Of a DNA stretch of 64,000 nt, positions 359-61,959 are shown piece after piece. The notes below the pieces were generated by a model. It saw only the letters and a program-made list of their open reading frames with translations, was not told the origin of the DNA and ran no database searches. Each line of letters starts with the position of its first letter. The first letter of the stretch is position 1. Source of the DNA: Eledone cirrhosa (taxonomy: Eukaryota); the NCBI GenBank assembly GCA_964016885.1, contig OZ024743.1:370512001-370576000 (forward strand). The letters run 5' to 3'. Both the position numbers and the translations under genes were made by a program.

Positions 359-1701
359 AAATATGAGTAAAATCTCCAAGAACCAATTCTGGCCAATGAG
401 TCATAATGTTTCTTTAGTTCTATGAAAGTTGCCATTAAACTACCAATATGATAAATTCTTATTACTAATGTGAAAGCTATTAGTCAAATTTTCACATACT
501 TTCTGATAACTAAAATCGTGAATAGCTATTATTTGGTATATTTTTTTTAAGTATTCCTTCAAATAGACACTTGTGTATTGTCATCTAGTTTTGATAAAGA
601 AATTTGTCTACTTTTGAAATCATTAGAATGATACTGTTAAGAACTCATTGATGGTGTTCAGATAATGACATAGGTCACAAATAAAGAAGGATTAAAGTAG
701 ACAGGAGCAAATAAATGGTGGCAGAATATTAATATTGACTTGTTCCTTATTTCATCATAGGTTTGATTGATCAGGTCATTCTGATCAAGCAAATCTATGA
801 TCAAAGATATTCTAGTTGTAACCATTTTATTTTTTTTTTTTAATGTGTCTTTTTTAATACAGTAAAATGAGATATGATGGAGATTTTGCTGTTATTTCTA
901 GAAAGTCTGGCAACCACATAAAGTCGCTTCTCTCTCTCTCTCTTTCATTGGCTGATGAATATAGAAGAAGCATATACATTAACATCTCTACATTACACAA
1001 TCTGTTTATTTCCTTCAGATGATTCTTCTTAAAAATTATAGATATATTGATATCCCTTGATGTAGAAATTAAAGATACCTTTATATCAACATAAGATAAT
1101 GGGGTGGGGATTTTTGTCTGATGGCCAACACTTCTGATAATCTGGTTAGTGCCTAAGTTGGTCTTTATTCTGTGATAAAATTTGAAATCTCTATGCAGTT
1201 ACTATAAAGTTTTCTCTCTATGAATAAATATCTGTTTGTTTTGATATGAGAAAACATATTCATCGAAACTAACTCTATATTGCTTTTCTTTTATATAAAT
1301 TACATTCAAATTCCAAAATAGCATTTTAATAATAGATAAATCATCCTACTAATGAATTTGTCATCTATATGACTAGTTGACAGCTTGATACTGAGATCAG
1401 TAACTTTGATTCTTTTTCCACTGAAATATTATTATATATTCATTTAATCAATTTAAAAGTCCGTATAGAGCTAGTCAGCCATGACTGGCTAGAAGAAATA
1501 TCTATAAATTCTTAAAGTTAAGAAACAAAAAAGAAGATAGGCAGATATAATTGAATACAAAAATAAAAATAAGAATAAAAATTAAAATTAAATTAAATTA
1601 AATCAAATTAAAAAATATTAAGAATATTATCATTGTTGTTTCTAATAATGTCTTGCCATTATTTGATCTTTTACTGATCTTAACATATTTTATTATTTCA
1701 G

Positions 1702-1839
1702 CAAAATTCTTCAGTTGTGATTTTGAAGATAAAAATATGTGTGGTTCTAAAAGTCACCCCAAAAGAGATTCTTGGTCTATAGGTGCTGGAATTTTTAATA
1801 AAAGACCAAAACTTGATTACTCAGAACAAACATATGAAG
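1702..1839 (+). CDS. Exon A of MAM/LDLa/SRCR mosaic protein gene: N-terminal part of a MAM domain
   Basis: Acceptor ttattatttcag, donor AG|gtgaat; 138 nt, phase 1-1. Encodes KFFSCDFEDKNMCGSKSHPKRDSWSIGAGIFNKRPKLDYSEQTYE(G), matching the MAM start CDFE..C...W....P..D...G. Continues in frame into exon B. Confidence 0.88.
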
Positions 1840-2439
1840 GTGAATTATCATTTAGAATTTAATTCCTTGTTTTAATGTTGCTGTTTCTATGATAGTAAAT
1901 GTTGATCATGACATACACAAATTTTCCTTGCATATCAATAGTACTTCATTTTGATTATAACTGTTTTCAGTACTAATTAAGTACTTCTTCATACAAGAAT
2001 ATGTCCACCGTGTATTCACTCTCATTATTATGGGCACTTTGTGAATTCACTTATTATGTGTGTACTTAATGGAAAATACTAAAATAATAACCATTTAAAT
2101 TCATCTTACATAAGTTATTTTCATTCTATAAGAAAAACCTTTCTGACCAACAAAAGTATCAATTATATTGTGTGAATTCTATTTTAGAGTAAATACACTG
2201 TACCCCTGAATATGGTGACTAAAAAGATTGGCATCTAGAAATTTGTTCAATGAAACGCTGCTGCAAAAAGGGTCTCATAATGTATGGGTGGGACAGCCTA
2301 ATGTATTACATGGAAGTAATCACTTATTACATTAAAGCTGAAGGTGGGGAACCAAGTTGACACAATGGAAGAATTCAGTTTATTTGTGATGGCCATATAA
2401 CAGGTGTCTCTTGTGGAAGTTTCGGATATAAAACGTAGG

Positions 2440-5400
2440 AACGATAACAGGGCGATCCGGGATTTTAGAGCAATAAAAGGAAATGAAGGAATGGATAGGA
2501 TGGATAAGAGAGGGACCAGATAAAAGAGGAAAATGGGGAAATATACAGAAAATAACAAGGAGATGAGGGAATGTAAATAAATTAAGAGGGTGGTGAGGGA
2601 ATGAGGGATGATAACAGGTAATTGGGGGAATGTATGGTTGATAACAAGGAGATGGGGTAATGTAGATATGATAACAGGGAGATCAGGGAATGTAGAGATG
2701 ATAAGAGGGATATGGGGGAATGTAGGGTTGATAACAGGGAATTGGGGGAATGTAAAGATGATAACAGGGAGATCGGGTAATGTAGATATGATAACATGGA
2801 GATGGGGGAATGTAAAGATGATGACAGAGAATTGGGGGAATGTAAAGTTGATAACAGGGAGATGGGGGAATGTAGGCTTGATAACAGGGAGATGGGGGAA
2901 TGTAGAGATGAGAAGAGGAAGTTGGGGGAATATAGAGATGATAACAAGGAGATGGGGGAATGTAGAGATGATAAGAGGGAGATGGGGGAATGTAGAGATG
3001 ATCACAGGGAGACGGGGGAATGTAGAGATGATAAAAAACACATGGGGGAATGTAGAGATAACAAGGAGATGCGGGAATGTAGAGATGATAAGAGGGAGAT
3101 GGGGGAATGTAGATATGATAACAGGGAGATGGGGTGAATGTAGGGATGATAAAAAACACATGGGGGAATGTAGAGATAACAAGGAGATGCGGGAATGTAG
3201 AGATGATAAGAGGGAGATGGAGGAATGTAGATATGATAACAGGGAGATGGGGTGAATGTAGGGATGATAAAAAACACATGGGGGAATGTAGAGATAACAA
3301 GGAGATGCAGGAATGTAGAGATGATAAGAGGGAGATGGAGGAATGTAGATATGATAACAGGGAGATGGGGTGAATGTAGGGATGATAACAAGGAGATGGG
3401 GGAAAGTAGGGTTGATAACAAGGAGATGGAGGAATGTAGAGATGATAAAAGGCAGATGGGGGAACGTAGGAATGATAAGAGGAAACTGTGGGGGGATGTC
3501 GGGATGATAACAGGGAGATGGAGGAATGTAGAGATGATAACAGGGAATTGCGTGAATGTAGATATGATAACAGGGACATGGGGGAATGTAGGGATGATAA
3601 CAGGGAGATGGGGGAATATAGGGATGATAACAGAGAGACGGCAATGTAGGGATGATAACAGGGAGATGGGGAACTGTAGAGATAATTACAGGGAGATGGG
3701 GGAGTATAGGGATGATAACAGGGAGATGGTGGAAATATAGGGTTGATAACAGGAGATGGGGGACTGTAGAGATGATAACAGGGAAATGGGTGAATATAGG
3801 GATGATAAAAGGGAGAAGGGAGAATGTAGAGTTGATAAGAGGAAGATGGGGAATGTAGAGATGATAACAGGGAGACGGGGGAATGTAGGTTTGATAACAG
3901 GGTTATGATGGAATGAAGAGATGATAACAGGGAATTGGGGAATGTAGAGATGATAACAGGGATATGCAGAATGTAGAGATGATAACAGGGAGATGGGGGA
4001 CTGTACTGACAATATCAGGGAGATGGGGGAATGTAGGGATGATAATAGCGAGATAGGGAATGTAGAAAAACATAACAGGGATATCAAGGAATGTAGCGTT
4101 CATAAGAGGAAGATCAGGGAATGTAGGGTTGATAAAAGGGAGATGGGGGAATGTAGAGATGATAACAGGGAGATGGGGGGATGTAGAGATGATAACAGGG
4201 AGATGGGGGGATGTAGAGATGATAAAAGGGAGATGGGGGAATGTAGGGCTGATAACAACGACATGAGGCAATGCAGCGATGATAACAGGGAGATGGGGGA
4301 ATGTAGAGATGATAATAGGGAGATGGGGGAATGTAGATATGATAACAGGGAGATGGGGAGAATGTAGGGATGATAACAGGGAATTGGGGAATGTATGAAT
4401 GATAACAGGGAGATGGGGGAATGTAGAAATGATAACAAGGAGGTCAGGGCATATAGAGATGATAATAGGGATATGGGGAATGTAGAGATAATAACGGAGA
4501 GATGGGGGATTGTAACAAGGAGATGGGGGAATGTAGAGATGATAAGAGGGAGATGGGGGAATGTAGAGATGATAACAGGGATATGGGGGAATGTAGAGAT
4601 GATAACAAAGACATGGGGAATGTAGAGATAACAAGGAGATGCGGGAATGTAAAGATGAGAAGAGGGAGATGGAGGAATGTAGGGATGATAACAAGGAGAT
4701 GGGGAAATGCAGTGAAGATAACAGGGAGATGGGGGAATGTAGATATGATAACAAGGAGATGGGGTGAATGTAGGGTTGATAACAACGAGATGGGGGAATG
4801 TAGGGTTGATAACAAGAATATGGGTGTATGTAGAGATGATAACAGGGAGATGGGGGAATGTAGGGTTGGTAACAACGAGATGGGGGAATGTAGGAATGAT
4901 AACAGGGAATTGGGGGATGTAGGGATGATAACAGGGATATGGAGGAATGTAGAGATGATAACAGGGAATTTCGTGAATGTAGGTATGATAACAGGGATAT
5001 TGGGGAATGTAGGGATGATAAGAGGGAGATGGGGAACTGTAGAGATAATAACAGGCAGATGGCGGAATATTGGGAGGATAATAGGGAGATGGGAGAAATA
5101 TAGGGTTGATAAAAGGGGGAAAAACTGTAGAGGTGATAACAGGGAAATGGGTGAATATAGGGATGATAAAAGGGAGATGGGGAAATGTAGAGTTGATAAC
5201 AGGGTTATAGGGGAATGTAGGGTTGGTAACAGGGAATTGGAGGAATGTAGGGTTGATAACAGGGAGATGGGGGAATATAGAGATGAGAAGGGGGAGTTGG
5301 GGAAATATAGAGATGATAACAAGGAGATGGGGGGAATGTAGAGATGATAACGGGGAGATGGGGAAATTTAGAGATGATAACAAGGAGATGGAGGAATGTA

Positions 5401-8400
5401 GAGATGATAACAAAGACATGGGGGAATGTAGAGATAACAAGGAGATGGGGGAATGTAGAGATGATAACAAGGAGATGGGGGAATGTAGAGATGATAACAG
5501 GGAGATGGGGGAATGTAGGGTGATAACAGGGAATTTGGGGGAATGTAGGGATGATAACAGGGAGATCGGGTAATGTAGAGATGATAACAGGGAGATCAGG
5601 GAATGTAGAGATGATAACAAGGAATTGGGGGAATTCGGGGAATTGGGGGAATTCAGATGATAACAGAGAGATGGGGGACTGTAGAGATGATAACTGGGAG
5701 ATGGGGGAATGTAGGTTTGATAACAGCGTTATGATGGAATGAAGAGATGATAACGGGTAATTGGGGGAATGTAGGGGTGGTAACTGGCAGATCAGGGCAT
5801 GTAGAAATGATAACAGGGATATGGAGAATGTAGAGATGATAACAGGGAGATGGGGGACTGTACTGACAATATCAGGGAGATGTGGGAATGTAGGGATGAT
5901 AATAGCGAGATAGGGAATGTAGAAAAACATAACAGGGATATCAAGGAATATAGCGTTCATAAGAGGAAGATCAAGGAATGTAGGGTTGATAACAGGGAGA
6001 TCAGGGAATTTAGGTTTGATAAAAGGGAGATGGGGGAATATAGAGTTGATAACAGGGAGATGCGGGAATGTAGAGATGATAACAGGGAGATGGGGAAATG
6101 TAGGGTGATAACAGGTAGATGGGGGAATGTAGGGTTGAGAACAGGGAGATGGGGGAATATAGAGATGATAACAAGGAGATGGAGGGAATGTAGAGATGAT
6201 AACGGGGAGATTGAGTAATATAGAGATGATAACAGGGAGACGGCGGAATCTAAAGGTGATAACAGGGGATGGGGTAATGTAAAGGTGATAACAATGACAT
6301 GGGGGAATGTTGGGATGATAACAGGGAGATGGAGCAATGTAGAGATTATAACAAGGAGATGGGGGAATGTAGGGTTGATAAGAGGGAAATGGGGGATTGT
6401 AGAGATAGCAGGGAGATGGGGGAATACAGGTATGATAAAGGGAGATGGGGGAATGTAGGGAAGATAACAGCGAGATGGAGGAATGTAGGGTGTATAACAG
6501 GGTGATGTATGAATGTAAAGATGATAAAAGGGAGATTGGGGAATATAGAGATGATAACAGTGAGATGGGGGAATGTAGGGATGATAACAGTGAGATGGCG
6601 GAATGTAGGGTTGATAACAGGAAAATGGGGGAATGTAGGGATGATAACAGAGAGATGGCGGAATGTGGAGATAATAACAGGGAGATGGGGGAATGTAGAG
6701 ATGATAACAGGGAGATGGGGGAACGTAGGGATGATAACAGGGTGATTGAGGAATGTAGAGATGATAACAGGGAGATGGGAGAATGTAGAGATGATAACAG
6801 GGAGATGGGGGAATGGAAGGATGATAACAGGGAGATGGGGGAATGTAGAGTTGATAACAGGGAATTGGGGGAATGTTGGAATGATAACAGGAAGATGGAG
6901 CAATGTAGATATTATAACAAGGAGATGGGGGAATATAGGGTTGATAACAGGAAGATGGGGGATTGTAGAGATAGCAGGGAGATGGGGGAATACAGGTATG
7001 ATAAAGAGAGATAGGGGAAATGTAGGGATGATAACAGGGAGATGGGGTAAAGTAAGATGTATAACAGGGTGGGAGGAATGTAGAGATGATAACAGGGAGA
7101 TGGGGGAATGTAGAGATGATAACAGGAAGATGGGGGAATGTCGGGATGATGACAGGGAGATGGTGGATTATAGGTATGATAACAGGGAGATGGGTGAATG
7201 TAGGGTTGATAATAGGGAGAGGGGGAAATGTAGACATGATAACAGGGAGATTGTTGAATATAGGGATGATAACAGGGACATGGGAGAATATAGGGATGAT
7301 AACAGGGAGATGGAGGAATGTACAGATAGATGATAACAGGTAGATGGGGTAATATAGTGATGATAACAAGGAGATTGGGGGAATGTAGAGATGATAACAG
7401 GGAGATGGTGGAATGTAGAGATGATAACAGGGAGATGAGGGAAATATAAAAATGGTAACAGGGATATGAGGAATGGAGGGATGATAACAGGGAGATGGGG
7501 GACTGTAGAGATAATAACAGGGAGATGGGGGAATGTAGGGCTGATAATAAGGAGATGGGGTAATTAGAAAAGCATAACAGGGATATCAGGGAATGTAGTT
7601 TTCATAACAGGAAGATCAGGAAATGTAGGGTTGATAACAGGGAGATTAGGTAATGTAGGGTTGATACCAGCGAGATGGGGGAATGTAGGGATAATAACAG
7701 GGAGATGGAATAATTTAGGGATCATAACAGGGAGATGGGAGAATGTAGGGATCATAACAGGGAGATGGAAGAATGTAGGGTTCATAACAGGGAGATGGGG
7801 GAATATAGTGAATATAACAGGGAGATTGAGGAATGTAGAAATGATAACAGGGAGATGGGGGAATGTAAAGATGATAACAGTGATATGGGGAATGTATGGA
7901 TGATAACAGGGAGATGGGGGAATGTAGGGTTCAAAATAAGGAGATGGGGGAAAGTAGAAAAACATAACAGGGATATCAGGGAATGTAGGCTTGATAACAG
8001 GGAGATTAGGGATTGTAGGGTTGATAACAGGGAGATGGGGAATGTAGGGATGATAACAGGGAGATGGGGGAATGTAGGGTTGATAACAGTGTGATGGGGG
8101 AATATAGAGATGATAAGTGGGAATTGAGGGAATGTAGGTGTGATAACAGGGAGATGAGTGAATGTAGAAATGATAACAGGGATATGGGGAATGTAGAGAT
8201 GATACCAGCGAGATGGGGGACTATAGAATTAATTACAGGAAGATGGGGGAATGTAGGGATGATAACAGGGAGATGGGGGAATGTATAAAATCATAACAGG
8301 AAGATTAGGGAAGGTAGGGTTGTTAACAGGGAGATCAGTTAATGTAGGGTTGATAATATGGAGGTGGGGGAAAGTAGAAAAACATAACAGGGTTATCAGG

Positions 8401-11400
8401 GAATGTAGGTTCCATACTAGGAAGATCAGGTAATGTAGGGTTGATAGCAGGGAGATTAGGGAATGTAGGGTTGATAACAGGGAGATGGGGAATGGAGGGA
8501 TGATAACAGTGAATGGTTGAATATAGGAATGATAGCAGGGAGATGGGAGAATGTAGGGATGATAACAGTGAGACGGATCAATGTAGAGATGATAACAGGG
8601 AGATGGGGTAATGTAGACATAATACCAGGGAGGTGGGGGAATGTAGAGACGATAACAGGGACATGGGGGAATGTAGAGATGAGATGATAACAGGGTCATG
8701 GGGGAATATAGAGATAATAAGAGAGAGATGGGGCTATGTAGGGAATGTAGAGATGATAACAGGGAGATGGAGGAATGTAGAGATTATAACAGGGAGATGG
8801 GGTAATGTAGTGATGATAACAGGGAGATGGGGGAATGTAGAGATGATAACAGGGAGGTGGGGGAATCTAGAGACGATAACAGGGACATGGGGGAATTTAG
8901 AGATGATAACAGGGAGATGGAAGAATGTAAAGATGATAACAGAGCCATGGGTGAATGTAGAGATGATAAAAGGGACATGGGGGAATGTAGAGGTAATACC
9001 ATGGAGATGGGGGAATGTAGGGATGATAACAGGGAGATTGAGGAATGTAGAAATGATAACAGGGAGATGCGGGAATATAGCGATGATAACAGGGAGATGG
9101 GGGAATGTAGGGTTCAAAATAAGGAGATGGGGGAATGTAGAAAAACATAACAGGGATATCTGGGAATGTAGTGTTAATAAAAGGAAGATCAGGGAATGTA
9201 GGGTTGATAACAGGGAGATTAGGGAATGTAGGGCTGATAACAGGGAGATGGGCGTATGTAGGGATGATAACAGTGAGATGGAGGAATATAGGGTTGATAA
9301 CAGGAAGATGGGGTATGTAGAGATGATAACAAGGAGATTCAGGAATGTAGGGTTGATAACAGGGAGATGTGGAATGGAGGGATGTTAACAGGGAGATGGA
9401 GGAATGTAGTGATGATAACAGGGAGATTGTTGAATATAGAGATGATAACACGGTGATTGGGACTGTAGAGATGATAACAGGGAGATGGCGGAATGTAAAG
9501 ATGATAACAGGGAGATGGAGGAATGTAGGGTTGATAACAGTGTGATGGGGACTGTAGAGATAATTACAGGGAGATGGGGGAATGTAGGCATGATAATAGG
9601 GAGATGGGGGAATGTAGAAATTCATAACAGGGATATCAAGGAATGTAAGGTTGATGACAGGGAGACAGGGGAATGAAGGGATGAAAACAGGGAGATGGGT
9701 GAATATCCGGTTGATAACTAGGAGATGGTGGTGTGTAGAGTTAATAATAGGGAGATGCGGGAATGTAGAGAGTATATCAGGGAAAGAACAGATGTTAACA
9801 GGGAGATTGAGGAATGTAGAGATGTTAACATGGAGATAGAGGAATATAGTGTTGATAAGAGGGAGATGGGGTATGTAGGGAGTATAATAGGGAGATGGGG
9901 GAATGTATACTTGATAACAGGGAGATGGGGGAATGTACAGATAGATGATCACAGAGAAATGGGGTAATATAGTGATGATAACAAGGAGATGGGGGAATGT
10001 AGAGATGATAACAGGGAGATGGGGGAATGTAGAGATGATAACAGGGAGATGGGGGAATGTAGAGATGATAACAAGGAGATGGGGGAATGTAGAGATGATA
10101 ACAGGGAGATGGGGGAATGTAGAGATGATAACAGGGAGATGGGGGAATGTAGTGTTGATAACAGGGAGATTAGGTAATGTAGGGTTGATAGCAGCGAGAT
10201 GGGGATATGTAGGGATAATAACAGGGAGATGGAAGAATGTAGGGATCATAACAGGGAGATGGAGGAATGTAGGGATCATAACAGGGAGATGGGGGAATGT
10301 ATAGTTGATAACAGGGAGATGGGGGAATGTAAAGATGAATACAGGGATATGGGGGAATGTATAGTTGATAACAGGGAGATGGGGGAATGTAAAGATGAAT
10401 ACAGGGATATGGGGGAATGTATAGTTGATAACAGGGAGATGGGAGAATGTGAGGTTCAAAATAAGGAGATGGGGCAAAGTAGAAAAACATAACAGGGATA
10501 TCAGTGAATGTAGGGTTGATAACAGGGAGATTAGGGATTGTAGGGTTTATAACTGGAAGATGGGGAATGGAGGGATGATAACAGGGAAATGGAGGTATGT
10601 AAAGATGATAACAGGGAGATTGTAGAATATAGATATGATAACAGGGTGATGGGGACTCTAGAGATGATAACAGGGAGATGGCGGAATGTAGGGATGATAA
10701 CAGGGAGATGGGGGAATGTAGGGTTGATAACAGTGTGATGGGGGAATGTAGAGATGATAAGTGGGAATTGAGGGAATGTAGGTGTGATAACAGGGAGATG
10801 AGTGAATGTAGAAATGATAACAGGGACATGGGAAATGTAGAGATGATACCAGCGAGATGGGGAACTGTAGAATTAATTACAGGGAGATGGGGGTATGTAG
10901 GGATGATAACAGGGAGATGGAGGAATGTAGAAAATCATAACAGGAAGATCAGGGAAGGTAGGGTTGTTAACAGGGAGATCAGGTAATGTAGGGTTGATAA
11001 CAGGGAGATGGGGGAATGAAGGGCTGGTTGAATATAGGGGTGATAATAGGGAGATGGGAGAATGTAGAGATGATTACAGGGAGATGGAGGAATGTACAGA
11101 TGATAACAGGGAGATGGGGTAATGTAGTGATGATAACAGGGAGATTAAGGAATGTAGAGATGATAAAAGGGAGATGGGGGAATATAGAGACGATAACAGG
11201 GACATGGAGGAATTTAGAGATGCTAATAGGGAGATGGAGGAATGTAAAGATAATAACAGGGACATGGGAGAATGTAGAGATAACAACAAGGAGATGGTGG
11301 AATATAGGGATGATAACAGGGAGATTGAGGAATGTACAGATGATAACAGGGGGATGGGAGAAGGTAGATCTGACAACAGGGAGATGGGGGAATATAGGGT

Positions 11401-14400
11401 CGATAACAGGGAGATGGGGAATGAAGGGATGATAACAGGGAGACGGATCAATGTAGAGATGATAAAAGGTAGATGGGGTAATGTAGTGATGGGGTAATGT
11501 AGACATGATACCAGGGATGTGGGGAATATAGAGACGATAACAGGGACATGGGGGAATGTAGAGATGAGATGATAACAGGGTCATGGAGGAATATAGAGAT
11601 AATAAGAGGGAGATGGGTGAAAGTAGAGATGATAACAGGGATATGGGGGAATATACAGATTATAACAGGGAGAGGGGGGAAGTAGGGATGATAACAAGGA
11701 GATGGGGGAATGTTCAGATAACAGGGAGATGGGGGAATATAGCGATGATAACAGGAAGATGGAGGAATATAGGGATGATAACAGGAAGATGGGGGAATGT
11801 ACAGATGATAACAGGGAGATGGTGTAATCTAGGGATGATAACAGGGAGATTAAGGAATGTAGAGTTGATAACAGTGAGATGGAGGAATGTAAAGATAATA
11901 ACAGGGATATGGGTGAATGTAGTGCTGATAACAGGGAGATGGGGGAATGTAGGGATGATAACAGGGAGATTGAAGAATGTAGAGATGATAATAGGTAGAA
12001 GGTGGAATGTAAAGATGATAACAGGGATATGGGTGAATGTAGTGCTGATAACAGGGAGATGGGGGAATGTAGGGATGATAACAGGGAGATTGAAGAATGT
12101 AGAGATGATAATAGGTAGAAGGGGGAATGTAAAGATGATAACAGGGATATGGGCCATGGAGTGATGATAACAGGGAGATGGAGGACTGTAGAGATAATAA
12201 CAGGGTGATGGGGGAATGTAGGGTTGATAATAAGGAAATGGGAGAAAGTAGAAAAACATAACAGGGATATCAGGGAATGTAGTGTTCATAACAGGAGTAT
12301 CAGGGAATGTAGGGTTGATAACAGGGAGATCAGGGAATGTAGGGTTGATAACAGGGAGATCAGGGAATGTAGAAATGATAACAGGGAGATGGTTGAATAT
12401 AGGGATGATTCGAAGCAGATGGGAGAATGTAGGGATGATAACAGGGAGATGGAGGGATGTAGAGATTATAACAGGGAGATGGGGTAATGTAGTGATGATA
12501 ACAGGGAGATGGGGGAATGTAGAGATGATAACAGGGAGGTGGAGAAATCTAGAGACGATAACAGGGTCATGGGGGAATTTAGAGATGATAACAGGGAGAT
12601 GGAGGAATGTAGAGGTAATACCAGGGAGATGGAGGAATGTAGGGTTGATAACAGTGTGATGAGGGAATGTAGAAATGATAACAGGGATATGGGGAATGTA
12701 GAGATGATAATAGGGAGATGGGGGAATGTAGAAAATCATAACAGGGATATCAGGGAATGTAGGGTGCATAACAGGAAGATCAAGGTATGTAGGGTTGATA
12801 ACAGGGAGATCAGGGAATATAGGGTTGATGACAGGGGGACGGGGGAATGAAGGGATGAAAACAGGGAGATGGGTGAATATCGGGTTGATAACTGGGAGAT
12901 GGTGGTGTGTAGAATTAATAATAGGGAGATGCGGGAATGTAGAGAGTATATCAGGGAAAGAACAGACGTTAACAGGGAGATTGAGGAATGTAGAGATGTT
13001 AACATGGAGATAGAGGAATATAGTGTTGATAAGAGGGAGATGGGGTATGTAGGGAGTATAATAGGGAGATGGGGGAATGTATACTTGATAACAGGGAGAT
13101 TGAGGTATGTAGGGATGATAACAGGCAGATGGAGGTATGTAGGGATGAAAACAGGGAGATGTGGTAATATAGGGATGATAACGGGCAGATGGGGTATTGT
13201 AGAGATGATTGGAGGGAGTTGGGTGTATGTAGAGATGATAACAGGAAGATGGGGAATGTTGGTTTGACAACAGGGAGATGGGGGAATGTAGATGTGATAA
13301 CAGGGAGATGGCGGAATTTGGAGATGATAACAGGGAGATGGGGGAATGTAGATGTGATAACAGGGAGCTGGGGGCATATAGAGATGATTACAGGGAGATG
13401 GGAGAATGTAGGGATGATAACAGGGAAATGGAGGAATGTAGAGATGATAACAGGGAGATGGGGGAATGTAGGGATGATAACAGGGAGGTGTGGGAATGTA
13501 GGGATGATAATAGAGAGATGGATGTATGTAGTGATGATAACAGGGAGATGGGGGAATATAGGGATGATAACTCTGAGATGTGGGAATGTAGGGATGATAT
13601 CAGGGAGATGATGGAATGTAGGGATGATAACAGGAAGATGGAGAATGTTGGTTTGATAACAGGGAGATGGGGGGAATGTAGGGAGGATAACAGGGAGATG
13701 GAAGAATGTAGAGATGATAACAGTGAGATGGGGGTAATGTAGAGATGGTAACAGGGAGATGGGGGAATGTAGGGTTGATAACAGGGAGATGGAGGAATGT
13801 CGGGTTGATAACAGGGAGATGGGGGTATGTAGAGATAACAGGGAGATGGGGGAATATAGGCATGACAACAGGGAGATGGGGGAAATGTAGGGATGTTAAC
13901 AGGGAGATGGGGGAATGTAGGGATGATAACAATTAGATTAAGGAATGTAGAGGTGATAACAGGCAGGTAGGGGAATGTAGAGACGATAACAGGGACATAG
14001 GGGAATCTAGATATGATAACAGGGAGATGGAGGAATGTAAAGATGATAAGAGGGACATGGGTGAATGTATAGATGATAACAGGGACATGGGCGATGTAGG
14101 GATGATAACAGGGAGATTGAGGAATGTAGAGATGATAACAGGGGGATGGGGGACTCTAGAGATGATAACAAGGAGATAGGGGAATGTGGGAATGATAACA
14201 GAGAGATGGAGGAATGTAGAGATGATAACAGGGAGATGGGGGAATCTAGGGGTGATAACAGGAAGATGAGGGAATGTAGGGTTGATAACAGGGAAATGGG
14301 GGAATATAGAGATAACAGGGAGATGGGGGAATATAGGGATGATAACAGGGAGATGGGGGAATATAGGCTTGATAACAGGGATATGGGGGAAATATAGTGA

Positions 14401-14720
14401 TGATAACAGGGAGATGGGTGAATTTAGGGTTGATAACAGGGAGATGGGTGAATGTAGAGATGATAACAGGGAGATGGTTGAATATAGGGATGATAACGGG
14501 GAGATTGTGGAATGTAGATATGATAACAGGGAGATGTGGTAATGTAGGGATCATAACAGGATGATGGGTGAATGTAGAGACGATAACATTGACATGTGAG
14601 AATGTAGAGATGATAACAGGGAGATGGAGGAATGTAAAGATGATAACAGGGACATGGGTGAATGTAAGGATGATAACATGGAGGTGGGAGAATGTAGAAA
14701 TGATAACAGGGAGATGATCA
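2440..14720. repeat. Intronic 30-bp tandem satellite, about 410 units
   Basis: Consensus GATGATAACAGGGAGATGGGGGAATGTAGA recurs continuously, with 27/29/31-bp indel variants and degenerate units at both edges. It translates to the DDNREMGECR, MITGRWGNVE and PHLPVIISTF repeats seen in the ORF track. Confidence 0.98.
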
Positions 14721-15109
14721 TGATAGAGGATGATGAATCTGAAATTTGGCAGTGGTTGGAAATGGCTGGAAGATAGTTTCTAGGAGGCGTTGGTAATGTG
14801 ATGTGTATGGATGGTCAAAAAGATGAGCAAGATTCCTTTAAAAGATGAAGGTGGAAAGAGGATTGATGAGATGAGAAAGAAGTTTAAAGAACGACATTAA
14901 GAGAAGGATATATTCATGACCTGATTTATTGAGAGGGGGAGATGTTAAAACCTTGGGCACCTCTCGTGAAACAGGGCCACATCTAGGAATAGCCATGCCC
15001 CTCCCCCAACCTGAACTGCCCCAGGCCCCACCAAGGTCTAAACATGGCCTTGGATACAGCAACAGTAAAGGTAGCACAGGAAACATACATGGTAGTTAAC
15101 ATGACTGCA

Positions 15110-16700
15110 AAATCACAGAATGCACAGAGGAAAATGTTGAGAGATGTCTGGATGTATCAGAGGATTAGAATGGGTTGTTTCCAATTGCTAAGCAGTTAGC
15201 AAAAGAGATATGATGTGACAGAGGTGAGTTGCTTGAAGGAAGAATTGGGTCAAATTGTTGTGTGCCAATATAGAAGTAAAGGAAATCAGCAGGGTTATAT
15301 GGAAAGGTTGTTCAATGTTAAATATGGAGAATAAATGAGCTGGCATCATAGAGAGCAGTCTAATTCTTGAACCAATACTAAAGATAACTGAGATGGAAAT
15401 TAAGGTAGAGATAAAAGTAATGGAAATGGAAGAGCAGAAATGTTAACAGAAGTTGTGGGCAGTAGGAATTTGAATGTGTGAAGAAAAAATGAGAAAACTG
15501 TAGGTTGGAGATGAAAGAGGTCCAATGGATTGACAGTTGAATACTCTCATTCCTTTGCTCAAATGGAAAAGTTATTCTCTAGACTGTGGCTTTTATAAAG
15601 TAATTATGTTATTGGAGCTTGGAATAAAGGTATTTGAAAAAATGTGTGAAAAGAAGATAAAGAAGAAAATGTACACCAATAAAATACAATTTGGATTTAT
15701 GCTGAGAAGAAAAATGATAGATGCAATCTTTAGTGTAAGAAAAGTACAGCCATCCAGAAAGTGACATGGGAAGTTGTGACATAGATATTGAGGGAATTAA
15801 TGATGTCGGTTAGAGCAGTGATGACAATGTATGAGAGTGTGTGCACAGTTGTAATGATGAAGGATGAAAAAAGTGACAAGTTTGAAGTGATAGGAGTACA
15901 TCAATGACCACTATTAAGCCCACTACTGGTTGTAGTTGTGATAGCTCAAATTATAAATGAATATGGAAGTGGCTGTGTACAGGAAAAGTGTTGGAATGAA
16001 TTCCATTAAATATGCAATATGTGAAGTTTGGGTTCTTTGAAAAAGTATAGGTCAGAAGAAAAGTTTGTTAAATAATATGACATCTACATTTAAGTGTGAA
16101 GTGTGAAAGGGGGCAGTTGCAGATGGAGAGAATGTTGGGGTAGATATTATAACTGATGTGAAACTGAAAGATGAGAAAACATTCTGTTATGTAGAAAACA
16201 TTTTGAATGGAGAACGTGAATTAGACTCAGAAATTGTGGTTAGAGTGTATGAAAGAAATTTTTGAAAATTCCTGGAAATTAGTGGTGTAGTAATAAGGAG
16301 ACAAGTGTTGCTAAAACTGAAGGGAAAGTTGTATGTTACTCGTGTGAGAAGGGCTACATTATGAGAGAAAGACATAGGTAGTGAACTTGGAGCAATAGAG
16401 AAAAAGGGATTCAGTGGATGAACAGGATATTACTGAGAGAGAGAAAGACAAGCAATGAATTACAGAGGATGGTAATAATAAACCCAGTGATAGATGTTGT
16501 GAAGAAAAATGCGATGAGATGGATGAGTCATATGCTGGGGAAGGTTGAAAGTGGGTAGGTGGGGGAGTGATAGAAATAAATGTGGAGGGAGGGCTGAGAA
16601 AGTCATTGTTAAAGGTAATTGAGGCAGAAATGAGTAAAGTAGGGTTAGTGGGTGAGGTTGTAGTGAATAAAATCCAATGAAAGAAACTTATAAAGGAGCC
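15110..16700 (+). mobile_element. Heavily degraded RTE-clade LINE (RT remnants)
   Basis: Remnant motifs KIQFGFMLRRKMIDAIFSVRKVQ, GVHQ..LLSPLL and LKLKGKLY correspond to the better preserved RTE copies at 41 and 46 kb; many stops. Confidence 0.7.
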
Positions 16701-16818
16701 AACAAGGCTAGCTCCTATTTTATACTTATATAATGTAAAAGTTCTGAATGCTTTTTTCACATATGTTAAATATTTGGCCTCTGGTGATATTGCTTACTTA
16801 AAATATTTTATTTTCTAG

Positions 16819-17121
16819 GTCAATACATAATAGCCAATTCTACTGAAGAAAGCAGTCTAACATTACCTAATATAAATATTACAAATACTTCCTGTCTTAA
16901 TTTTTACTATTCATTCTTTGGAGATGGAAATGTATCAGTCTATGACAATGATCTTTTTATAATGGGTCTTTCTAAATTTGATGCTGATATCTGGAGGAAT
17001 GCCAATATTACACTACATGAAGGATACCACAGCATTTACTTTACATACTCAGGTGCCAATAAGTCTGGAAACATAGCACTTGACAGTGTTTCATTAATAC
17101 CAGGATGGTGTTCAGCTACAG
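16819..17121 (+). CDS. Exon B: remainder of the MAM domain
   Basis: Acceptor ttattttctag, donor G|gtaaga; 303 nt, phase 1-1, no stops. Encodes GQYIIANSTEESSLTLPNINITNTSCLNFYYSFFGDG...IWRNANITL...SGNIALDSVSLIPGWCSAT, with the MAM motifs CLxFxY, W, and GxIALDxVxLxxGxC. Confidence 0.92.
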
Positions 17122-17179
17122 GTAAGAACGATCTGACCTTTTATATTTCTTTAATGTTTAAAAAGTTTAAATTCAGTCA

Positions 17180-17420
17180 TGAGCTCAGAGGCTCATCAGT
17201 CTGGTGCTTATCCAGGTTTCCAAGACGTTAAGCGACTAAGAGAACAAGACCCTCTTGGAGAGGACTCCAGTCCATGACAGCGTTAAACCATCAGCTATTG
17301 CTGGTACTCATTTTCAGTTGAGTATACTGAAGCAATGTGAAATGAAGTGTTTTACTCAAGAATACAACACAAAATTATGATCATAAGTCCAATACACTTA
17401 CCACTAGGCTACACACCTTA
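17180..17420 (-). mobile_element. tRNA-headed SINE, second family (CTTGAGCAAGACACTT-type core)
   Basis: The minus strand begins aggtgtgtagcctagtggtaag (A-box-like), then ...cttgagtaaaacacttcatttcacattgc. Homologous to 31183-31430, 34803-35140 and 44497-44620. Confidence 0.7.
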
Positions 17421-17935
17421 TATTTCTTGATAATGTTTACTTCAGGAAACAAATAAGAAGATTTGACCAGGAGATGTATACACATAGACAAACAGATTGC
17501 AATGGTTCACAAAATTCATATGTAATATCATCCTTATATTGCACCCAGAATAATACTTCTATTTCTATCATATTTTCACTATACATTTGACCTTATTAAC
17601 ACTGGGGATCTTCTTCCCTGGTAAATGCACATACTTTACATAACAGAGAACATGATTGACTTTCTCTTCAGAACAAGAAAATACATACTGCAGCCCCCAT
17701 TAATCTACTACCCCTCTACATGGCTCAGGGGATACACACAATGGAATACTGCTCCCACATCTGGTATAAAACTGCTAATATTTACACACATGCACACACA
17801 GACACACACAGACACATACACACATACAGACACATAGATACACACACATCGAGACACATAAATACACACACACATATGAGTATATCCTGACTGATTTGAA
17901 TGAAATGGTTCATAAACACAGTTTAACCTAAGTTC

Positions 17936-18421
17936 ATAGTGCAGAATATTCTCAACTCTCTCACACACTATGCTAACAGCGTTTGCTATTTGATTTATAG
18001 TCAATCACCTGTCATCCATCACCATGTGGTGAAGACAATCAATGTTTTCCTCTGTGGTGACAGTTGCCGGACATCCAGACCTTGGGTTATATTCATGACT
18101 CTCCCTTTCCCTCCCAAATTCAGCTGTCCACTTTTGCACTGTTGATAAAGCTGGAGCATCATTCCCTAATGTAGCTACCATGTCAGCATAAATGTCATGG
18201 GGTGGGGGGGCTTTTTTAGTAGGTACTTGATAACACCACAAGTCCATTTTGAAGAGAAATTGCTACTAGTGTATTTGAAATCTTTTAACAATCATATGTC
18301 AGTGTATCTGAAAAGAAGCAATGCAGCTATTAATAAGAAGAGTTGAAATTAATGCATGTAAGATTTCGCAGTAGTAGCATTACGCCTTCATAGTCAGCCT
18401 ATGAAATTTTCAGCCCACATA
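17936..18421 (-). mobile_element. Mariner/Tc1 transposon 5' fragment (transposase HTH region plus one TIR-like end)
   Basis: Translation HDIYADMVATLGNDAPALSTVQKWTAEFGRERESHEYNPRSGCPATVTTEENIDCLHHMVMDDR*MTINQIANAVSI resembles a mariner transposase N-terminus. TIR-like gggctgaaaatttcataggctgac at about 18394-18417. Confidence 0.82.
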
Positions 18422-19385
18422 CGAGTATGTCCTGACTGATTTGATTGAAAGGGCTGACAAACACAGTCTAACTTCTAGTCCACAACTGTGCTCTTCTCTC
18501 TCTCTCTCTTTTTCCCACTACTACTATGGCCACTTCTGTTTGGGTATATTCAGTCTCATGCCACCTCCCCTCAGGTACTTCGGGTTCACTTATCTTTCTT
18601 CCTTTCACCACCAATATTATTTCCAATGTACCAGTACCTAGACTGATCACTCTACAAAGTCTTTCATTCTAAGAATCTGAGCCCTCTTCGATTCCCTCTT
18701 GACACATGTGATTTCTTCAACTATCAAGAGGCAGATGATTAAGAAAAGCATTAAGTATGTCAACCTTCCCTCAGACATTGGGAGCCACTAAAATGAGATG
18801 ATGATAGCCCTTTCCTCACCACCCTCATTGGAGAAAAGCCCTTATACCCAAGTCTTAGAGTGCGTCTGAAATTTACATGTTGATAGCCCTTTCTTCACCA
18901 CAAATGAAGCTTCATCATTTTTCTCATTTTAAACACTCAGCCTGTGCATTGAGTGTTCATACTGACTCCACTACCAGTAAATCACTGAATCACATATACT
19001 ATACTATATATATAACCCACTTTCTTGACATCAACAATCTGCTGAACCCCAACCAACATGGGTTCTGTAATGGAAGGGACTGCCTAATGCAGCTCCTACA
19101 TCACTTTGATGACATTTTAAGAGCTTTGGGAGAGGGCTCCAACACTGATGTCATCTACCTTAATTTCAGCAAGGCCTTTGACAGGGTTAATCACAACATT
19201 CCACTGAAAAAACTATCCAACAATGGTGTCTCTGAAAAGTTATTGCAATGGATCAAGTGTTCCCTGTCAAACAGAGCCCAACATGTTATAGTCAGAAGTG
19301 TACAATCTAGCCCAGCCAAAGTCAGTAGTGGCATTCCACAAGGCACTGTGTTGGGATCACTTCTCTTCATTATTTATATCAATGA

Positions 19386-19570
19386 TGGTGGATTGGCAGT
19401 ATCAGTAGAGGGTCAGACGCCATGCTTTGTAGCATAGAGTTACGCCCCTTTATGGTCTGAGTTCAAATCCCGCCGAGGTTAACTTTGCCTTTGATCCTTA
19501 TGGGGTCGATAAAATAAAGTACCAGTAATGCACTGGAGTAATTGCTGGCCTTGTGCCAAAAGCAGAAACA
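19386..19570 (+). mobile_element. Young full-length tRNA-derived SINE with a 17-bp TSD
   Basis: A-box tggcagtatcag, B-box gagttcaaatcc, core GAGGTTAACTTTGCCTTT...GGGGTCGATAAAATAAAGTACCAGT. TSD attatttatatcaatga at 19369-19385 and 19571-19587. Confidence 0.92.
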
Positions 19571-20052
19571 ATTATTTATATCAATGACATTATCGACATC
19601 ATGAAACACAACAACATAAGAATCTTTGCAGACTATTCCAAGCTCCAGAAGGTCATTGATGGAGTGGATGACCAAACATGCCTTCAATTAGATCTACTGG
19701 CTGTTATCCAATGGGCAGAAAAACCAATATGCAGCTGAATGACGATTAATTTGAACTAATCCACATTCCCTCCCTTTAGGTGAAACTCTCGTGGCATCCA
19801 ACAACATCAGAGACTTGGGAGTAATTGTCGATAACAACATAAGCTCGGCCTCTCATATAAGCAGCAAAATTGACATGGCCTGCAGAATGTGTTCCTGGAT
19901 TCTCAGAACTTTCCAGTCGAGAGATAACCACACTATTATCCTTCTCTTCTCTACCTTTGCCCGACTTTACCTTGAATACTGTTGTCCACTGTGGTCTCCC
20001 CACACAAAACAAAGTATTTTGAAAATTGTAACACTTCAAAGGTTAATCACAC

Positions 20053-20157
20053 AAAAGATAGATGACATGACAGACCTTGACTATTGGAAAAGATAGATGA
20101 CATGACAGACCTTGACTATTGGAAAAGATAGATGACATGACAGACCTTGACTATTGG
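20053..20157. repeat. Perfect 35-bp triplication inside the CR1-like element
   Basis: aaaagatagatgacatgacagaccttgactattgg x3. Confidence 0.95.
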
Positions 20158-20524
20158 TGTCGACTAGAAAAGCCCAAACTCTATTTTCTCCAACGGAATT
20201 GTGATCGCTACCTTATCTGCATGATGTGGAAAATATTCCCTCAGTATTGCCTAAATGATGTTGGCATCATCTCTAAAGTACATCTAAGGCTTGGGCACCA
20301 TGTTATCCACCCACAACAAAAATCAAACTCGCATCTCATAACAACATTATGTCACAATTATTTCACCTCAACTGGTCATGCTCATCAAAACACATCATTC
20401 TCCATAAACAATAACTTTCTACTTGAGTTGGCCATGGTGTTCGAATCCTGATTTGAAAGACTTCACCAGGTGGTGCTATTAAGTTAGAATGGCCTGGGCC
20501 AATACTGGCCGAAACCTATCCCAC

Positions 20525-20596
20525 ACCAAATGGAACAAAACCGTCTAACCCATGCTAACATGGAAGATGGATGTTAAACGATGATGATGATGATGA
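20525..20596 (+). mobile_element. RTE 3' tail fragment
   Basis: ccgtctaacccatgctaacatggaagatggatgttaaacg(atg)n has the same form as the other RTE 3' ends in the window. Confidence 0.75.
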
Positions 20597-20772
20597 TATG
20601 TATATACATATATATATATATATAACACAGTTGGCAGTGTTTGATAAGGTTGTTTTTTGTAGAAACATCATTGCAATATTTTACAGTATTTATAAGAAAT
20701 TAAAAAAACAAATGGAAAATAAATATCCTTTTATTATTTTTTAATTTAGTTGTTACTATTTCCTTTCTTTAG

Positions 20773-20886
20773 ATTGTGGAGAATATTGGTATTCTTGTAA
20801 TGACAATCATACATGCTACCCTTACACTACAAAATGTGATGGGGTAGAAAACTGTGCTAATGGACATGATGAAGAAAATTGTACAA
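20773..20886 (+). CDS. Exon C: LDL-receptor class A repeat
   Basis: Acceptor tcctttctttag, donor A|gtaagt; 114 nt, phase 1-1. Encodes DCGEYWYSCNDNHTCYPYTTKCDGVENCANGHDEENCT, with 6 Cys and the CDGxxxCxxGxDExxC motif. Confidence 0.93.
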
Positions 20887-43526: not shown

Positions 43527-44492
43527 TTGCCCAGATGGTTCTATAGAAATAGTGGACACTTTCCGTTAAAATCAGCAGTGGTGGAGGGTGTTCTGAAAGT
43601 ACAGTAGCCAGAGTCAGAACGGGATGGAAAAAGTTCAGAGAGCTTATACCGCTGTTGGCCACAAAAGGTTTCTGTCTAAAAATGAAAGGCAGATTGTATG
43701 ATGCCTGTATACGAACAGCAATGCTACATGCAGAGGACCTGCGCGGACTGGAGAGGAACAAAGCTCACATACTCCGTTGGATGTGTAATAGTAATATACG
43801 TCAACGGCAAAGCATAAATGGACTAAATGAGAAATTAGGAATAAGAGGGATCAGATGCTGTTTACTTGAGAGAGGACTACATTGGTATGGTCACATGATG
43901 CGCATGAAAGACGACAGCTGTATAAAAAAAGTGCAGGGCGATCAAAATTGATGGAAGTTACGGAGTAGGTAGACCCAGAAAAACCTGGGACGATTTGATA
44001 AATTCCAACCTTACACACTTGCACCTCTCTAAGACAATGTCACTGGACCAAGATCTTTGGCACTACGTAGTAATACAGAAGACAAAGCGAAACCTACAGT
44101 CAGTAGGCACCTCTTAGCCAAATATACACCCCAATCCACTACCCCTACCCTATCCTCCCACTCCCACCAACACCACCCTCTCTCTATAAAGTTGGTACCA
44201 CAACATCCAGTCCAAATAAATGAGATAATGAGATCGAGATTGTGTAGGTGTCACGACAAACAAATACACAGTCCACGCAGTAATGTGGCCGTGTAGGTAA
44301 CATGGTAAAAAATTCCCAGTTCCACACTGTAAATGTGGTTGGTGTTAGGAAGGGCATCCAGCCGTAGAAAACCTGCCAGATAGTCCTATATGAGCGAGAC
44401 ACGGCCACCCGACCAACCTTGCCTCAAGTGGGACAACTCCTGTCTAACCCATGCTAGCGTGGAAGATGGACGTTAAACGAAGATGATGATGA
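43527..44492 (+). mobile_element. RTE LINE 3' fragment (closely related to 38570-39580)
   Basis: KGFCLKMKGRLYDACIRTAMLH..LRWMC..WYGHMMRM; the 3' UTR is colinear with the minus-strand copy. Confidence 0.9.
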
Positions 44493-49114: not shown

Positions 49115-50062
49115 TGTTTGATGCATGTATATAACCAACAATGTTGCACAACAGCAAGACCTGGGCACTGTGTGCTGAGGGCCTGTGGAGATTGGAAAGA
49201 AATGAAGTCTCCATGCTTCGATGGAGGTGCAATAGCAATATACGTGAATGGCAAAGCATAAATGAACTGTGTGAGAAATTGGGCATAAGAGGGATCATAT
49301 GTTGCATGCAGGAGAGGAGATTGCATTGGTATGGACATGTGATGCATATAAAGGATGACAGCTGTAAAAAAAGGTGCAGAGCGCTCCAAGTTGATGGTAG
49401 CCATGGAGTGGGCAGGCCTAGTAAGACTTGGGTTGAGGTGATTAAAGCTGACCTTACACAATTACACCTCCCAAAGTCGATGACACAAGACCATGACCTC
49501 TGGCACTATGCAGTACTACAGAATCACATCATCCCATATGCTTGAGGAATATATCTAATAGGCAACACTAACCTCTACCAACGCCCTTCCCATACACCTC
49601 CCTTACTGTAACCACCCCTCCCCTATTAATTACATCCTCAATTTTCTCCAAGTTTCTTCCCCCACTCTCCCAAGTTCCCATCCCACACCATGAAGTGGTC
49701 CCTTTGGAGCCACGACAAAAGTGCCCAGCCCACACTGTATAGTGGTCATGTATGTGTCAAGACAAAAGCACCCAGCCCACACTGTAAAATGGTCATGTAG
49801 AGGTCATAACAAAAAGCACCCAGCCCACACTGTAAAGTGGTCATGTCGACGACATGACAGAAAATGCTCAGTCCACACTTTCAAGTGGTCGTGTAGGTGT
49901 CACAATAAAATGTGGTTGGCATTAGGAAGGGCATCCAGCTATAGAAACCAAACCAAAATCAGCCCTGTGTATGGATCTCTGATCTGATCTCTCCCAAAGG
50001 GACAGCCCATCTTACCCATGCTAGTGTGGAAAATGGACGTTAAACGATAATGATGATGATGA
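49115..50062 (+). mobile_element. RTE LINE 3' fragment with tandem 3' UTR repeats
   Basis: MLHNSKTWALCAE..RLERNEVSMLRW..RRLHWYGHV; a ~46-bp unit aaaagcacccagcccacactgtaaagtggtcatgt.. repeated about 4 times; (GAT)n then (TA)n tail. Confidence 0.88.
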
Positions 50063-59175: not shown

Positions 59176-59183
59176 ATACATAC

Positions 59184-61890: not shown

Positions 61891-61959
61891 GAATCAGCTT
61901 CTGTTTACATTTTCGCATACATCTTAACGATATTCTCAATGGACGCTCTTACAATATTT

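What the first reader, a model, noticed from the sequence alone, without database searches (positions are those of the whole stretch)
2440..14720. 12-kb, G-skewed 30-mer array inside the intron that splits the MAM domain
Seen: about 410 head-to-tail units fill most of the 14,979-bp intron. The consensus has 13 G, 11 A, 5 T and 1 C (80% purine), and the G-rich strand is the gene's sense (non-template) strand. Common variants read GGG-agat-GGGGG-aatgta-GGG-ttgataaca-GGG, four G-runs with 4/6/9-nt loops. Known: transcribed G-rich non-template tandem repeats form R-loops and G-quadruplexes; immunoglobulin switch regions are the classic multi-kb intronic case. Inference: a transcribed satellite that could act as an R-loop/G4 platform, a Pol II slowing or splicing-timing element, or a recombination hot spot in a putative immune/proteolytic gene. 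The switch-region comparison is architectural only: AGCT hot spots are essentially absent.
Basis: partly seen in the sequence, partly recalled or inferred. Interest (0 to 1): 0.75.

Follow-up and report, generated by a model that had tools for sequence, protein, structure and literature searches.

The report
Minisatellite grown from dead LINE's endonuclease
The 12-kb G-rich repeat sits inside a decayed jumping gene (a LINE) in the intron, and its 30-base unit matches ten codons at the start of that element's endonuclease, so it likely grew there by local duplication and likely owes its G-richness to the element rather than to any job for the host gene.

Summary
The array is real: about 410 units of 30 bp, 362 distinct variants, one locus in 3.0 Gb. 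It lies in the 14,979-bp intron of a MAM/LDLa gene whose octopus homologues end in a trypsin domain. The unit matches the family's first endonuclease codons at 25-26 of 27 bases. The family's sense strand is already G-skewed (0.46-0.56). The array scores lower for G4 than a pure seed array (0.88 against 1.23) and has drifted about as far as other copies. Arrays of 5.5 kb or more occur in 10 of 50 blind 10-kb samples. It is likely a neutral, transposon-derived minisatellite. R-loops are possible as a by-product (38.6% G) but untested. It is not a switch region. Unreviewed notes of this scan report the same class on other DNA of this genome. New member of a known kind.

The parts
1702..1841 (+). 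Host exon, N-terminal part of a MAM domain
   Evidence: Pfam MAM 1-38, E 0.15; tblastn to homologues P0001/P0002; spliced contig in X4 joins the upstream exon to 1702
1842..16820 (+). GT-AG intron, 14,979 bp; about 97% of it is the LINE plus its array
   Evidence: Donor and acceptor read; element limits
2160..2429 (+). 5' leader of a decayed RTE-like LINE (start approximate, 2159-2190)
   Evidence: nhmmer E 1.2e-18 to a family profile; pairwise hits to family copies; 5' starts cluster at 2159-2190; 27% diverged from family majority
2430..2459 (+). First, degenerate unit at the homologous position of the seed: the first codons of the APE-type endonuclease, W-N-V-G-x-x-T-G-R-(S/L)-G
   Evidence: Alignment to family majority; family copies read R-F-G-T-W-N-I-G-x-M-T-G-R here; copy L093 hits Pfam Exo_endo_phos 1-72, E 8.2e-6
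2440..14716 (+). About 410-unit 30-bp minisatellite, G-rich on the sense strand, built by nested block duplications (largest: 7633-9912 matching 10157-13086, 76 units, 89% identical; youngest: 118-bp higher-order repeat at 2940-3382, 98%)
   Evidence: unit matches family majority at 25-26 of 27 bases; single locus
14711..16722 (+). Remainder of the same LINE: linker after the endonuclease, broken reverse transcriptase, C-terminal part and short 3' end; about 0.6-0.8 kb of endonuclease is missing between the seed and this point
   Evidence: 51 other genomic matches at 65-82% identity; nhmmer E 6.9e-148; tblastn to a near-intact related ORF, E 3.6e-9 and 1.9e-7; gap and 3' end measured; 20% diverged from majority
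16821..17121 (+). Host exon, C-terminal part of the MAM domain
   Evidence: Pfam MAM E 2.8e-6; X4 contig covers 16866-17121 and runs on into the exon at 20773

Best explanation
The array lies inside a decayed RTE-like LINE and its unit matches that element's first endonuclease codons, so it is likely a neutral minisatellite that grew in place from a 30-bp duplication in the dead copy. Steps: (1) a near full-length LINE inserted in sense orientation into what was then an intron of about 0.4 kb (element shown; original size inferred). (2) Ten codons at endonuclease motif I were duplicated head to tail (homology and in-register position shown; the slippage or unequal-crossover event inferred). 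(3) Rounds of unequal exchange or conversion copied blocks of 4 to 76 units to reach about 410 (blocks shown; mechanism inferred). At some point 0.6-0.8 kb of endonuclease next to the array was lost (loss shown; timing unknown). (4) Units have since drifted with a G/C-to-A/T bias like the rest of the element (shown). The G-skew and sense orientation are inherited from the LINE's coding strand (shown for the family). The host gene likely splices the array out with the intron (inferred), and any R-loop or G4 would be a by-product.
For: Both flanks belong to one LINE family in the same orientation. The left flank ends exactly at the seed position, and the best profile hit of a mid-array stretch falls on the same profile positions, 867-893 of 3809 (weak alone, E 1.6). 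Against a 30-copy alignment that excludes the window's copy, the unit matches the majority at 25 of 27 bases (A27 form) or 26 of 27 (G27 form); PWM scores are 31.9 and 34.0, while 150 shuffled units average 6.9 with a maximum of 17.4. Over 30 bases the consensus differs from the family seed at positions 4, 15 and 27 only, and the ancestral G survives at 27 in 166 of 414 rows. Units are on average 17.8% from the family seed; other copies are 20.8% off at the same columns and the window's flanks 20-27%. This is roughly what neutral drift predicts. G and C change at about 15.5%, A and T at 4-7%; G-run positions 16.5% against isolated G 18.7%. Family sense-strand GC skew averages 0.46-0.56, minimum 0.28, over 147 BLAST segments, some loci counted twice. 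[quoted passage not shown] G4Hunter: array 0.88, pure seed array 1.23. Blind background: 10 of 50 stretches hold arrays of 5.5 kb or more; one of them (L174) scores higher for G4 (1.01). No other array shares this junction.
Against: The per-copy seed test was inconclusive: the best hit lay in place in 6 of 11 copies, while 100 shuffled units averaged 1.1 but reached 7; only the profile test is decisive. The array is more skewed (0.78) than its parent element (0.35-0.56). One fixed change (position 15 to G) created the G5 run, and G3 motifs with loops of 1-12 (45) exceed base-shuffled sequence (mean 15.8, maximum 22). Units are slightly less diverged than the flanks, which could reflect homogenisation or G-favouring conversion. 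No RNA contig crosses the intron itself (gap at 1786-1841 and 16821-16865), so clean splicing is inferred. RTE membership was not tested by phylogeny, and no target-site duplication was found. Neutrality is argued from sequence patterns, not from population or expression data.
Confidence: 0.82

Rival explanations
1. Structure-driven growth: the array has no host function, but transcription through the G-rich LINE-derived seed forms R-loops or G4s that stall forks and cause the repeated duplications, so sense orientation in an expressed gene is why this seed grew so large.
For: 38.6% G with G-clusters on the non-template strand; 78 initiation-like sites, 53 followed by at least 40% G; range taken from PMC4245955 passages. 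The unit has one C and a stretch of six units has no competing fold (MFE 0 kcal/mol). A pure seed array would score 1.23 in G4Hunter. The gene appears transcribed.
Against: Loops are 4, 6 and 9 nt and purine-rich, whereas destabilising minisatellite G4s have short pyrimidine loops (PMC5491262 passages). There is no excess of C-to-T on the displaced strand (24 of 408 at the single C, against a median of 26 G-to-A per G site; weak, one site, shared ancestry). Arrays as large or larger with almost no skew or G4 score are common (L132, L142, L160). A 21-mer array further upstream, between exon matches of the homologues, is C-rich on the sense strand.
Confidence: 0.1
2. Co-opted regulatory element: the array is kept because R-loops/G4 slow Pol II, time splicing across the MAM domain, or promote recombination in a protease gene.
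For: Size, intronic position and G-rich non-template strand resemble switch regions in outline; homologues are MAM/LDLa/trypsin proteins.
Against: AGCT 1, WGCW 19 in 12.3 kb; no partner array to recombine with; G-runs decay about as fast as isolated G; windows with G4Hunter of 1.5 or more are rarer than in shuffles (2.8% against 5.0%); intron length is unremarkable for this gene (others of 20.6 and 12.0 kb).
Confidence: 0.04
3. The repeat junction arose in another LINE copy and was copied in by ectopic recombination, as unreviewed notes of this scan propose for other LINE motifs in this genome.
For: Leads only. The adjacent 0.6-0.8 kb deletion could come from such an event. A 21-mer array at G000:C5:23.73 Mb shares about 19 bases with the same motif.
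Against: All 178 matches of a 25-mer at up to 2 mismatches lie in this array. Two tandem-core searches found 8 other sites, all with different units. None of the 6 fetched stretches, covering 5 of those sites, showed the LINE's 5' part; 3 sites were not fetched, and the C5 array's right flank was not seen.
Confidence: 0.04

Closest known systems
TE-derived minisatellites in human (Ahmed and Liang 2012, PMC3389668; abstract, Results part 1 of 2 and section 3.4 read)
   Same: Unit derived from the TE in which the array sits; single-locus, like 5,747 of their 5,932 clusters; growth by local duplication; higher divergence in longer arrays
   Different: About 410 units and 12 kb against means of 2-3 units in Alu; source is an RTE-like endonuclease coding motif; units are 86% identical, below their 95% data filter
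Satellites derived from LINE ORFs: chicken HinfI/CR1, Phodopus PROsat and seal Pvc20 from L1 ORF2 (review PMC9659126; passages read)
   Same: Tandem repeat made from LINE coding sequence
   Different: Here the parent copy still flanks the array on both sides, the unit is only 30 bp, and it has not spread to other loci
Immunoglobulin switch regions (PMC4245955 passages; PMC2442634 search listing)
   Same: [quoted passage not shown]
   Different: No AGCT/WGCW density, no donor-acceptor pair, LINE origin, and no sign that G-runs are conserved
G4-forming human minisatellites CEB1 and CEB25 (PMC5491262 passages; PMC2673046 and PMC3486850 search listing)
   Same: G-rich single-locus minisatellite near a chromosome end (8.3 Mb from the end of a 378.8-Mb contig)
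   Different: Long purine loops, third G-run lost in more than half of the units, no canonical G4 motif with loops of 1-7

Membership tests
TE-derived minisatellite | Unit is similar to a TE sequence | tested here: met
   25-26 of 27 bases match the family majority; PWM 31.9-34.0 against a shuffled maximum of 17.4 in 150
TE-derived minisatellite | Array overlaps a genomic TE copy, in register | tested here: met
   LINE 5' part ends at the first unit and LINE sequence resumes at about 14711
TE-derived minisatellite | Expansion by local duplication of units | tested here: met
   14 internal block duplications at 86-98% identity cover 251 of 408 units; no copy elsewhere
RTE-clade LINE (parent element) | APE-type endonuclease followed by reverse transcriptase | tested here: met
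   Family copies hit Pfam Exo_endo_phos (L093) and RVT_1 (L070, E 4.6e-4, below cut-off); the window's right flank aligns to the RT of a related near-intact ORF, whose endonuclease aligns to solved L1 endonuclease structures
RTE-clade LINE (parent element) | No long ORF1; total length about 3.2-3.9 kb with a short 3' UTR (PMC1291365 passages) | tested here: met
   About 270 bp precede the endonuclease; the two flanks plus the missing part sum to about 3 kb; homology ends at about 16722
RTE-clade LINE (parent element) | RT/EN phylogeny groups with RTE-1 | not tested
   No reference set on hand; the RTE label rests on architecture and recalled motif similarity
RTE-clade LINE (parent element) | Target-site duplication and A-rich terminal tandem repeats | tested here: inconclusive
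   Best shared word is 8 bp (2179 and 16715) but lies inside family homology at both ends; the copy is 20-27% decayed; terminal repeats were not searched systematically
Immunoglobulin switch region | Repetitive, G-rich non-template strand with G-clusters and 35-50% G | tested here: met
   38.6% G, skew 0.78, 78 initiation-like sites
Immunoglobulin switch region | Dense AGCT/WGCW deaminase targets | tested here: not met
   AGCT 1, WGCW 19 in 12,281 bp
Immunoglobulin switch region | Paired donor and acceptor regions for deletional recombination | tested here: not met
   Single locus genome-wide at up to 2 mismatches
Immunoglobulin switch region | R-loops in vivo, inducible upstream promoter, AID-type deaminase | not testable with these tools
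   Needs DRIP or bisulfite footprinting and tissue RNA
G4-unstable minisatellite (CEB1/CEB25 type) | G-triplets joined by short (3 nt or less) pyrimidine loops | tested here: not met
   Loops of 4, 6 and 9 nt, purine-rich; 0 motifs with all loops 1-7; criterion from PMC5491262

The most novel reading that the evidence does not exclude
G-rich coding strands of RTE-like LINEs that land in sense orientation in transcribed introns form R-loops that drive their own pieces into 10-kb-scale arrays, making transcription-coupled amplification of dead LINE sequence a main engine of intron and genome growth in this octopod; this locus preserves seed, parent copy and duplication history together.
Probability: 0.1. 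Interest if true: 0.55.

Novelty: new member of a known kind. Interest (0 to 1): 0.22.

Why it matters
It replaces a switch-region-like story with a traceable origin: parent element, seed codons and duplication blocks are all still readable, which makes it a clean example of a dead LINE inflating an intron about 35-fold (from about 0.4 kb, inferred). It also warns that G-skew and sense orientation in this genome's introns are expected from LINE ancestry and are no evidence of R-loop function. The wider point is that multi-kb minisatellites fill a large share of this genome (13.5% of 500 kb sampled). The locus could serve as a highly variable single-locus marker if length varies. I found no paper on this array or on endonuclease-derived arrays in octopods in three searches; the process itself is in print.

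Tried and rejected
Coding role: two frames of the consensus are open, but 81 of 408 units shift the frame and the longest sense-strand open frame in the array is 290 aa; rejected. Dispersed satellite family: rejected. LINE sequence continuing past the seed before the array starts: suggested by one pairwise hit, rejected by the shuffle test. Target-site duplication at 2179/16715: rejected. HDV-like ribozyme in the 5' leader (recalled idea): Rfam gave only AT-repeat miRNA matches below gathering score in 13 loci. This LINE family as a special hot spot for arrays: 8 array rows touch about 104 kb of element in 84 loci, against 15 in about 485 kb of blind non-element DNA. De-duplication of the loci failed, one row is a duplicate, one a probable SINE, and only L087 and L095 are clearly element-derived; not shown. 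LINE origin of the large blind-sample arrays: unit scores at most 1 point above the best of 20 shuffles; not shown. Per-copy seed test: inconclusive. Sense-skew estimate (0.12): the profile was contaminated with other repeats; replaced. A misphased divergence figure (0.76) was an indexing error, corrected. Trypsin exons of the host gene: not found within 50 kb beyond the window. No RNA holder was listed as such; no contig crosses the array intron in X4; RAD runs X5 and X6 do not cover the locus. The first alignment run timed out and was repeated with faster settings. The Atlas did not hold the MAM exon. No supplements were read.
Full report
Observation. The array is there as described: period 30, 405.5 copies at 2552-14716, 414 unit rows over 2440-14720, consensus 13 G / 11 A / 5 T / 1 C, mean identity 0.864, 362 distinct strings. 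The degenerate stretch 2461-2545 belongs to the array. The intron is 1842-16820 and splits a Pfam MAM domain. AGCT occurs once. The four-G-run form is less common than stated: 4 exact occurrences, three G3 runs in 68 of 414 rows, no canonical G4 motif with loops of 1-7 and 45 with loops of 1-12. An assembly artefact is unlikely, because the longest exact repeat is 133 bp and duplicated blocks are 86-98% identical.

One locus. An exact 26-mer has 23 matches in the 3.0-Gb assembly and all 23 are in the array. A 25-mer with up to 2 mismatches has 178, equal to the count in the window, with none on the reverse strand.

Host gene. The MAM exon finds two proteins at 64% identity, named by their sources as MAM and LDL-receptor class A domain proteins of Octopus bimaculoides and O. 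vulgaris. Pfam gives SRCR, MAM, LDLa and trypsin for the first, and LDLa and trypsin for the second. Thirteen exon matches per homologue are collinear over about 96 kb. Trypsin exons were not found within 50 kb past the window. Run X4, of unrecorded kind, holds spliced contigs upstream (into 1702) and downstream (17121 to 20773) but none across the array intron. The gene thus appears expressed; splicing over the array is inferred.

What the array is. The G-skew continues past the array to about 16,700. That flank has 51 other matches in the genome at 65-82% identity and aligns to the reverse transcriptase of a near-intact related element (Pfam for that element, solved L1 endonuclease match). 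A profile from 30 copies matches both the right flank (E 6.9e-148) and the left flank (E 1.2e-18), in sense orientation. The left match stops where the array starts. At that place family copies read R-F-G-T-W-N-I-G-x-M-T-G-R, the start of an APE-type endonuclease, and one array frame reads W-G-N-V-G/E-M-I-T-G-R. In an alignment of 30 copies without the window's own, the unit matches the majority at 25-26 of 27 bases and scores 31.9-34.0, against a mean of 6.9 and a maximum of 17.4 for 150 shuffled units. A weaker per-copy test was inconclusive (6 of 11; shuffles up to 7). Homology runs from about 2160-2190 to about 16722. Between the seed and the resumption point 593-772 bp are missing relative to the 8 of 12 copies with the best right-flank scores; the other 4 gave 317-941. 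The element plus array is about 97% of the intron. I call it RTE-like from its architecture (compare PMC1291365 passages); no tree was built and no target-site duplication survives.

How it likely arose. Shown: nested duplications, from a 118-bp higher-order repeat at 98% identity near the 5' end to a 76-unit block at 89%; 14 blocks cover 251 of 408 units. Inferred: an initial 30-bp duplication by slippage or unequal exchange, then unequal crossover or conversion, with loss of the adjacent endonuclease sequence at an unknown time. Drift looks neutral. Units are 17.8% from the family seed, other copies 20.8% at the same columns, and the window's flanks 20-27%. G and C change two to four times faster than A and T in the array and about twice as fast in the flank. 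The consensus departs from the seed at positions 4, 15 and 27: the change at 15 made the G5 run, while the change at 27 removed a G3 run in more than half of the units.

Skew, G4 and R-loops. The family's sense strand has GC skew of 0.46-0.56 and 64-67% purines. [quoted passage not shown] The seed is a G-rich part of an already G-rich strand. G4Hunter is 0.88 for the array and 1.23 for a pure seed array; windows at 1.2 or more are 20% against 15% in shuffles, but windows at 1.5 or more are 2.8% against 5.0%. Loops are long and purine-rich, unlike the destabilising G4s of CEB1 and CEB25 (PMC5491262 passages). R-loop formation is plausible by composition (38.6% G, 78 initiation-like sites; criteria in PMC4245955 passages) but untested, and no displaced-strand C-to-T excess is seen (weak).

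Background. I took 50 stretches of 10 kb at round coordinates, blind to content. Seven hold arrays of 5.5 kb or more with periods of 20-87, and arrays counted in that call cover 67,625 of 500,000 bases. Three more are filled by 7-, 15- and 16-mers, making 10 of 50. Some are strongly skewed (L173 0.62; L174 0.92 with G4Hunter 1.01), and at least two are far larger than this one (872 and 1,853 exact pattern matches). On contigs C1-C4 such arrays (period 20 or more) fall in 5 of 9 stretches within 25 Mb of an end and 1 of 30 interior ones, or 2 of 30 with the 7-mer. The p of 0.0014 is post hoc and used 29 for 30 by miscount. This array lies 8.3 Mb from a contig end. Other copies of the same LINE carry their own internal arrays (L087, L095 clearly; L081, L089 probably), but enrichment over background was not shown.

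Rivals. Structure-driven growth (0.10), a co-opted regulatory or recombination element (0.04) and a junction copied in from another LINE copy (0.04) are weighed in their sections. The last came from unreviewed notes of this scan. Two tandem-core searches found 8 other sites, none with this junction, and none of the 5 sites fetched lay in the LINE's 5' part. A look-up by sequence found nothing relevant.

Comparison and verdict. It is a TE-derived minisatellite by the criteria of Ahmed and Liang (PMC3389668; abstract, Results part 1 and section 3.4 read). LINE-ORF-derived satellites are listed in PMC9659126 (passages), and RTE LINEs are abundant in Octopus vulgaris (PMC13282606 passages). It shares outline and G density with switch regions but fails their deaminase-target and paired-region features. 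Searches showed no paper on this array or on octopod endonuclease-derived arrays. Notes of this scan describe the same class at several other sites in this genome; I reached this reading before opening them, and they are not independent support. New member of a known kind; interest 0.22.

Noticed in passing
L132, L141, L142, L151, L160, L163, L164, L171, L173, L174 (blind 10-kb samples of G000): Giant minisatellite arrays are very common in this genome (10 of 50 stretches) and lean towards contig ends; the L173 68-mer has 1,853 exact matches all on one strand, the L141 87-mer 671 forward and 201 reverse.
   Followed up: partly
L087 (41-mer x24, 47-mer x5), L095 (103-mer x8.5), L081 (43-mer x9), L089 (54-mer x3), L065 (88 bp x2): Other copies of the same LINE family carry internal tandem duplications at other positions, from 2 to 24 units.
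   Followed up: partly
L050:2514-5753 (+): Near-intact younger element of a related family: endonuclease and RT frames in line, with a PHD finger after the RT (Pfam).
   Followed up: partly
L129:8427-10000 and L128:1-430; L058:607-1990; L130:2791-3136: Further arrays upstream, among exon matches of the same gene: a 21-mer x95 that is C-rich on the sense strand, a 139-mer x10 at 99% identity and a 37-mer x9.5.
   Followed up: no
L202:1322-3001 (G000:C5:23.73 Mb): 21-mer array (80 or more units) sharing about 19 bases with the same endonuclease-start motif; no LINE 5' part seen on its left, right flank not fetched.
   Followed up: partly
window about 14940-15085: An insertion of about 145 bp, C-rich, inside the LINE remnant, absent from the family profile.
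   Followed up: no
window 600-2550: Contig depth is about half that of the right flank and runs X1-X3 differ at five single bases, which suggests the left flank is heterozygous in that sample.
   Followed up: no
window 18859-20450; 22330-24860; 43553-43948; 49135-49542: Other decayed retroelements in the gene's introns: an RT fragment (Pfam RVT_1) with a following 35-bp x3 repeat, a broken LTR-retrotransposon-like gag/pol remnant (label by recalled motifs), and two LINE C-terminal fragments.
   Followed up: no
window 59000-64000: GC rises to 48-57%, unlike the rest of the window; probably another repeat.
   Followed up: no
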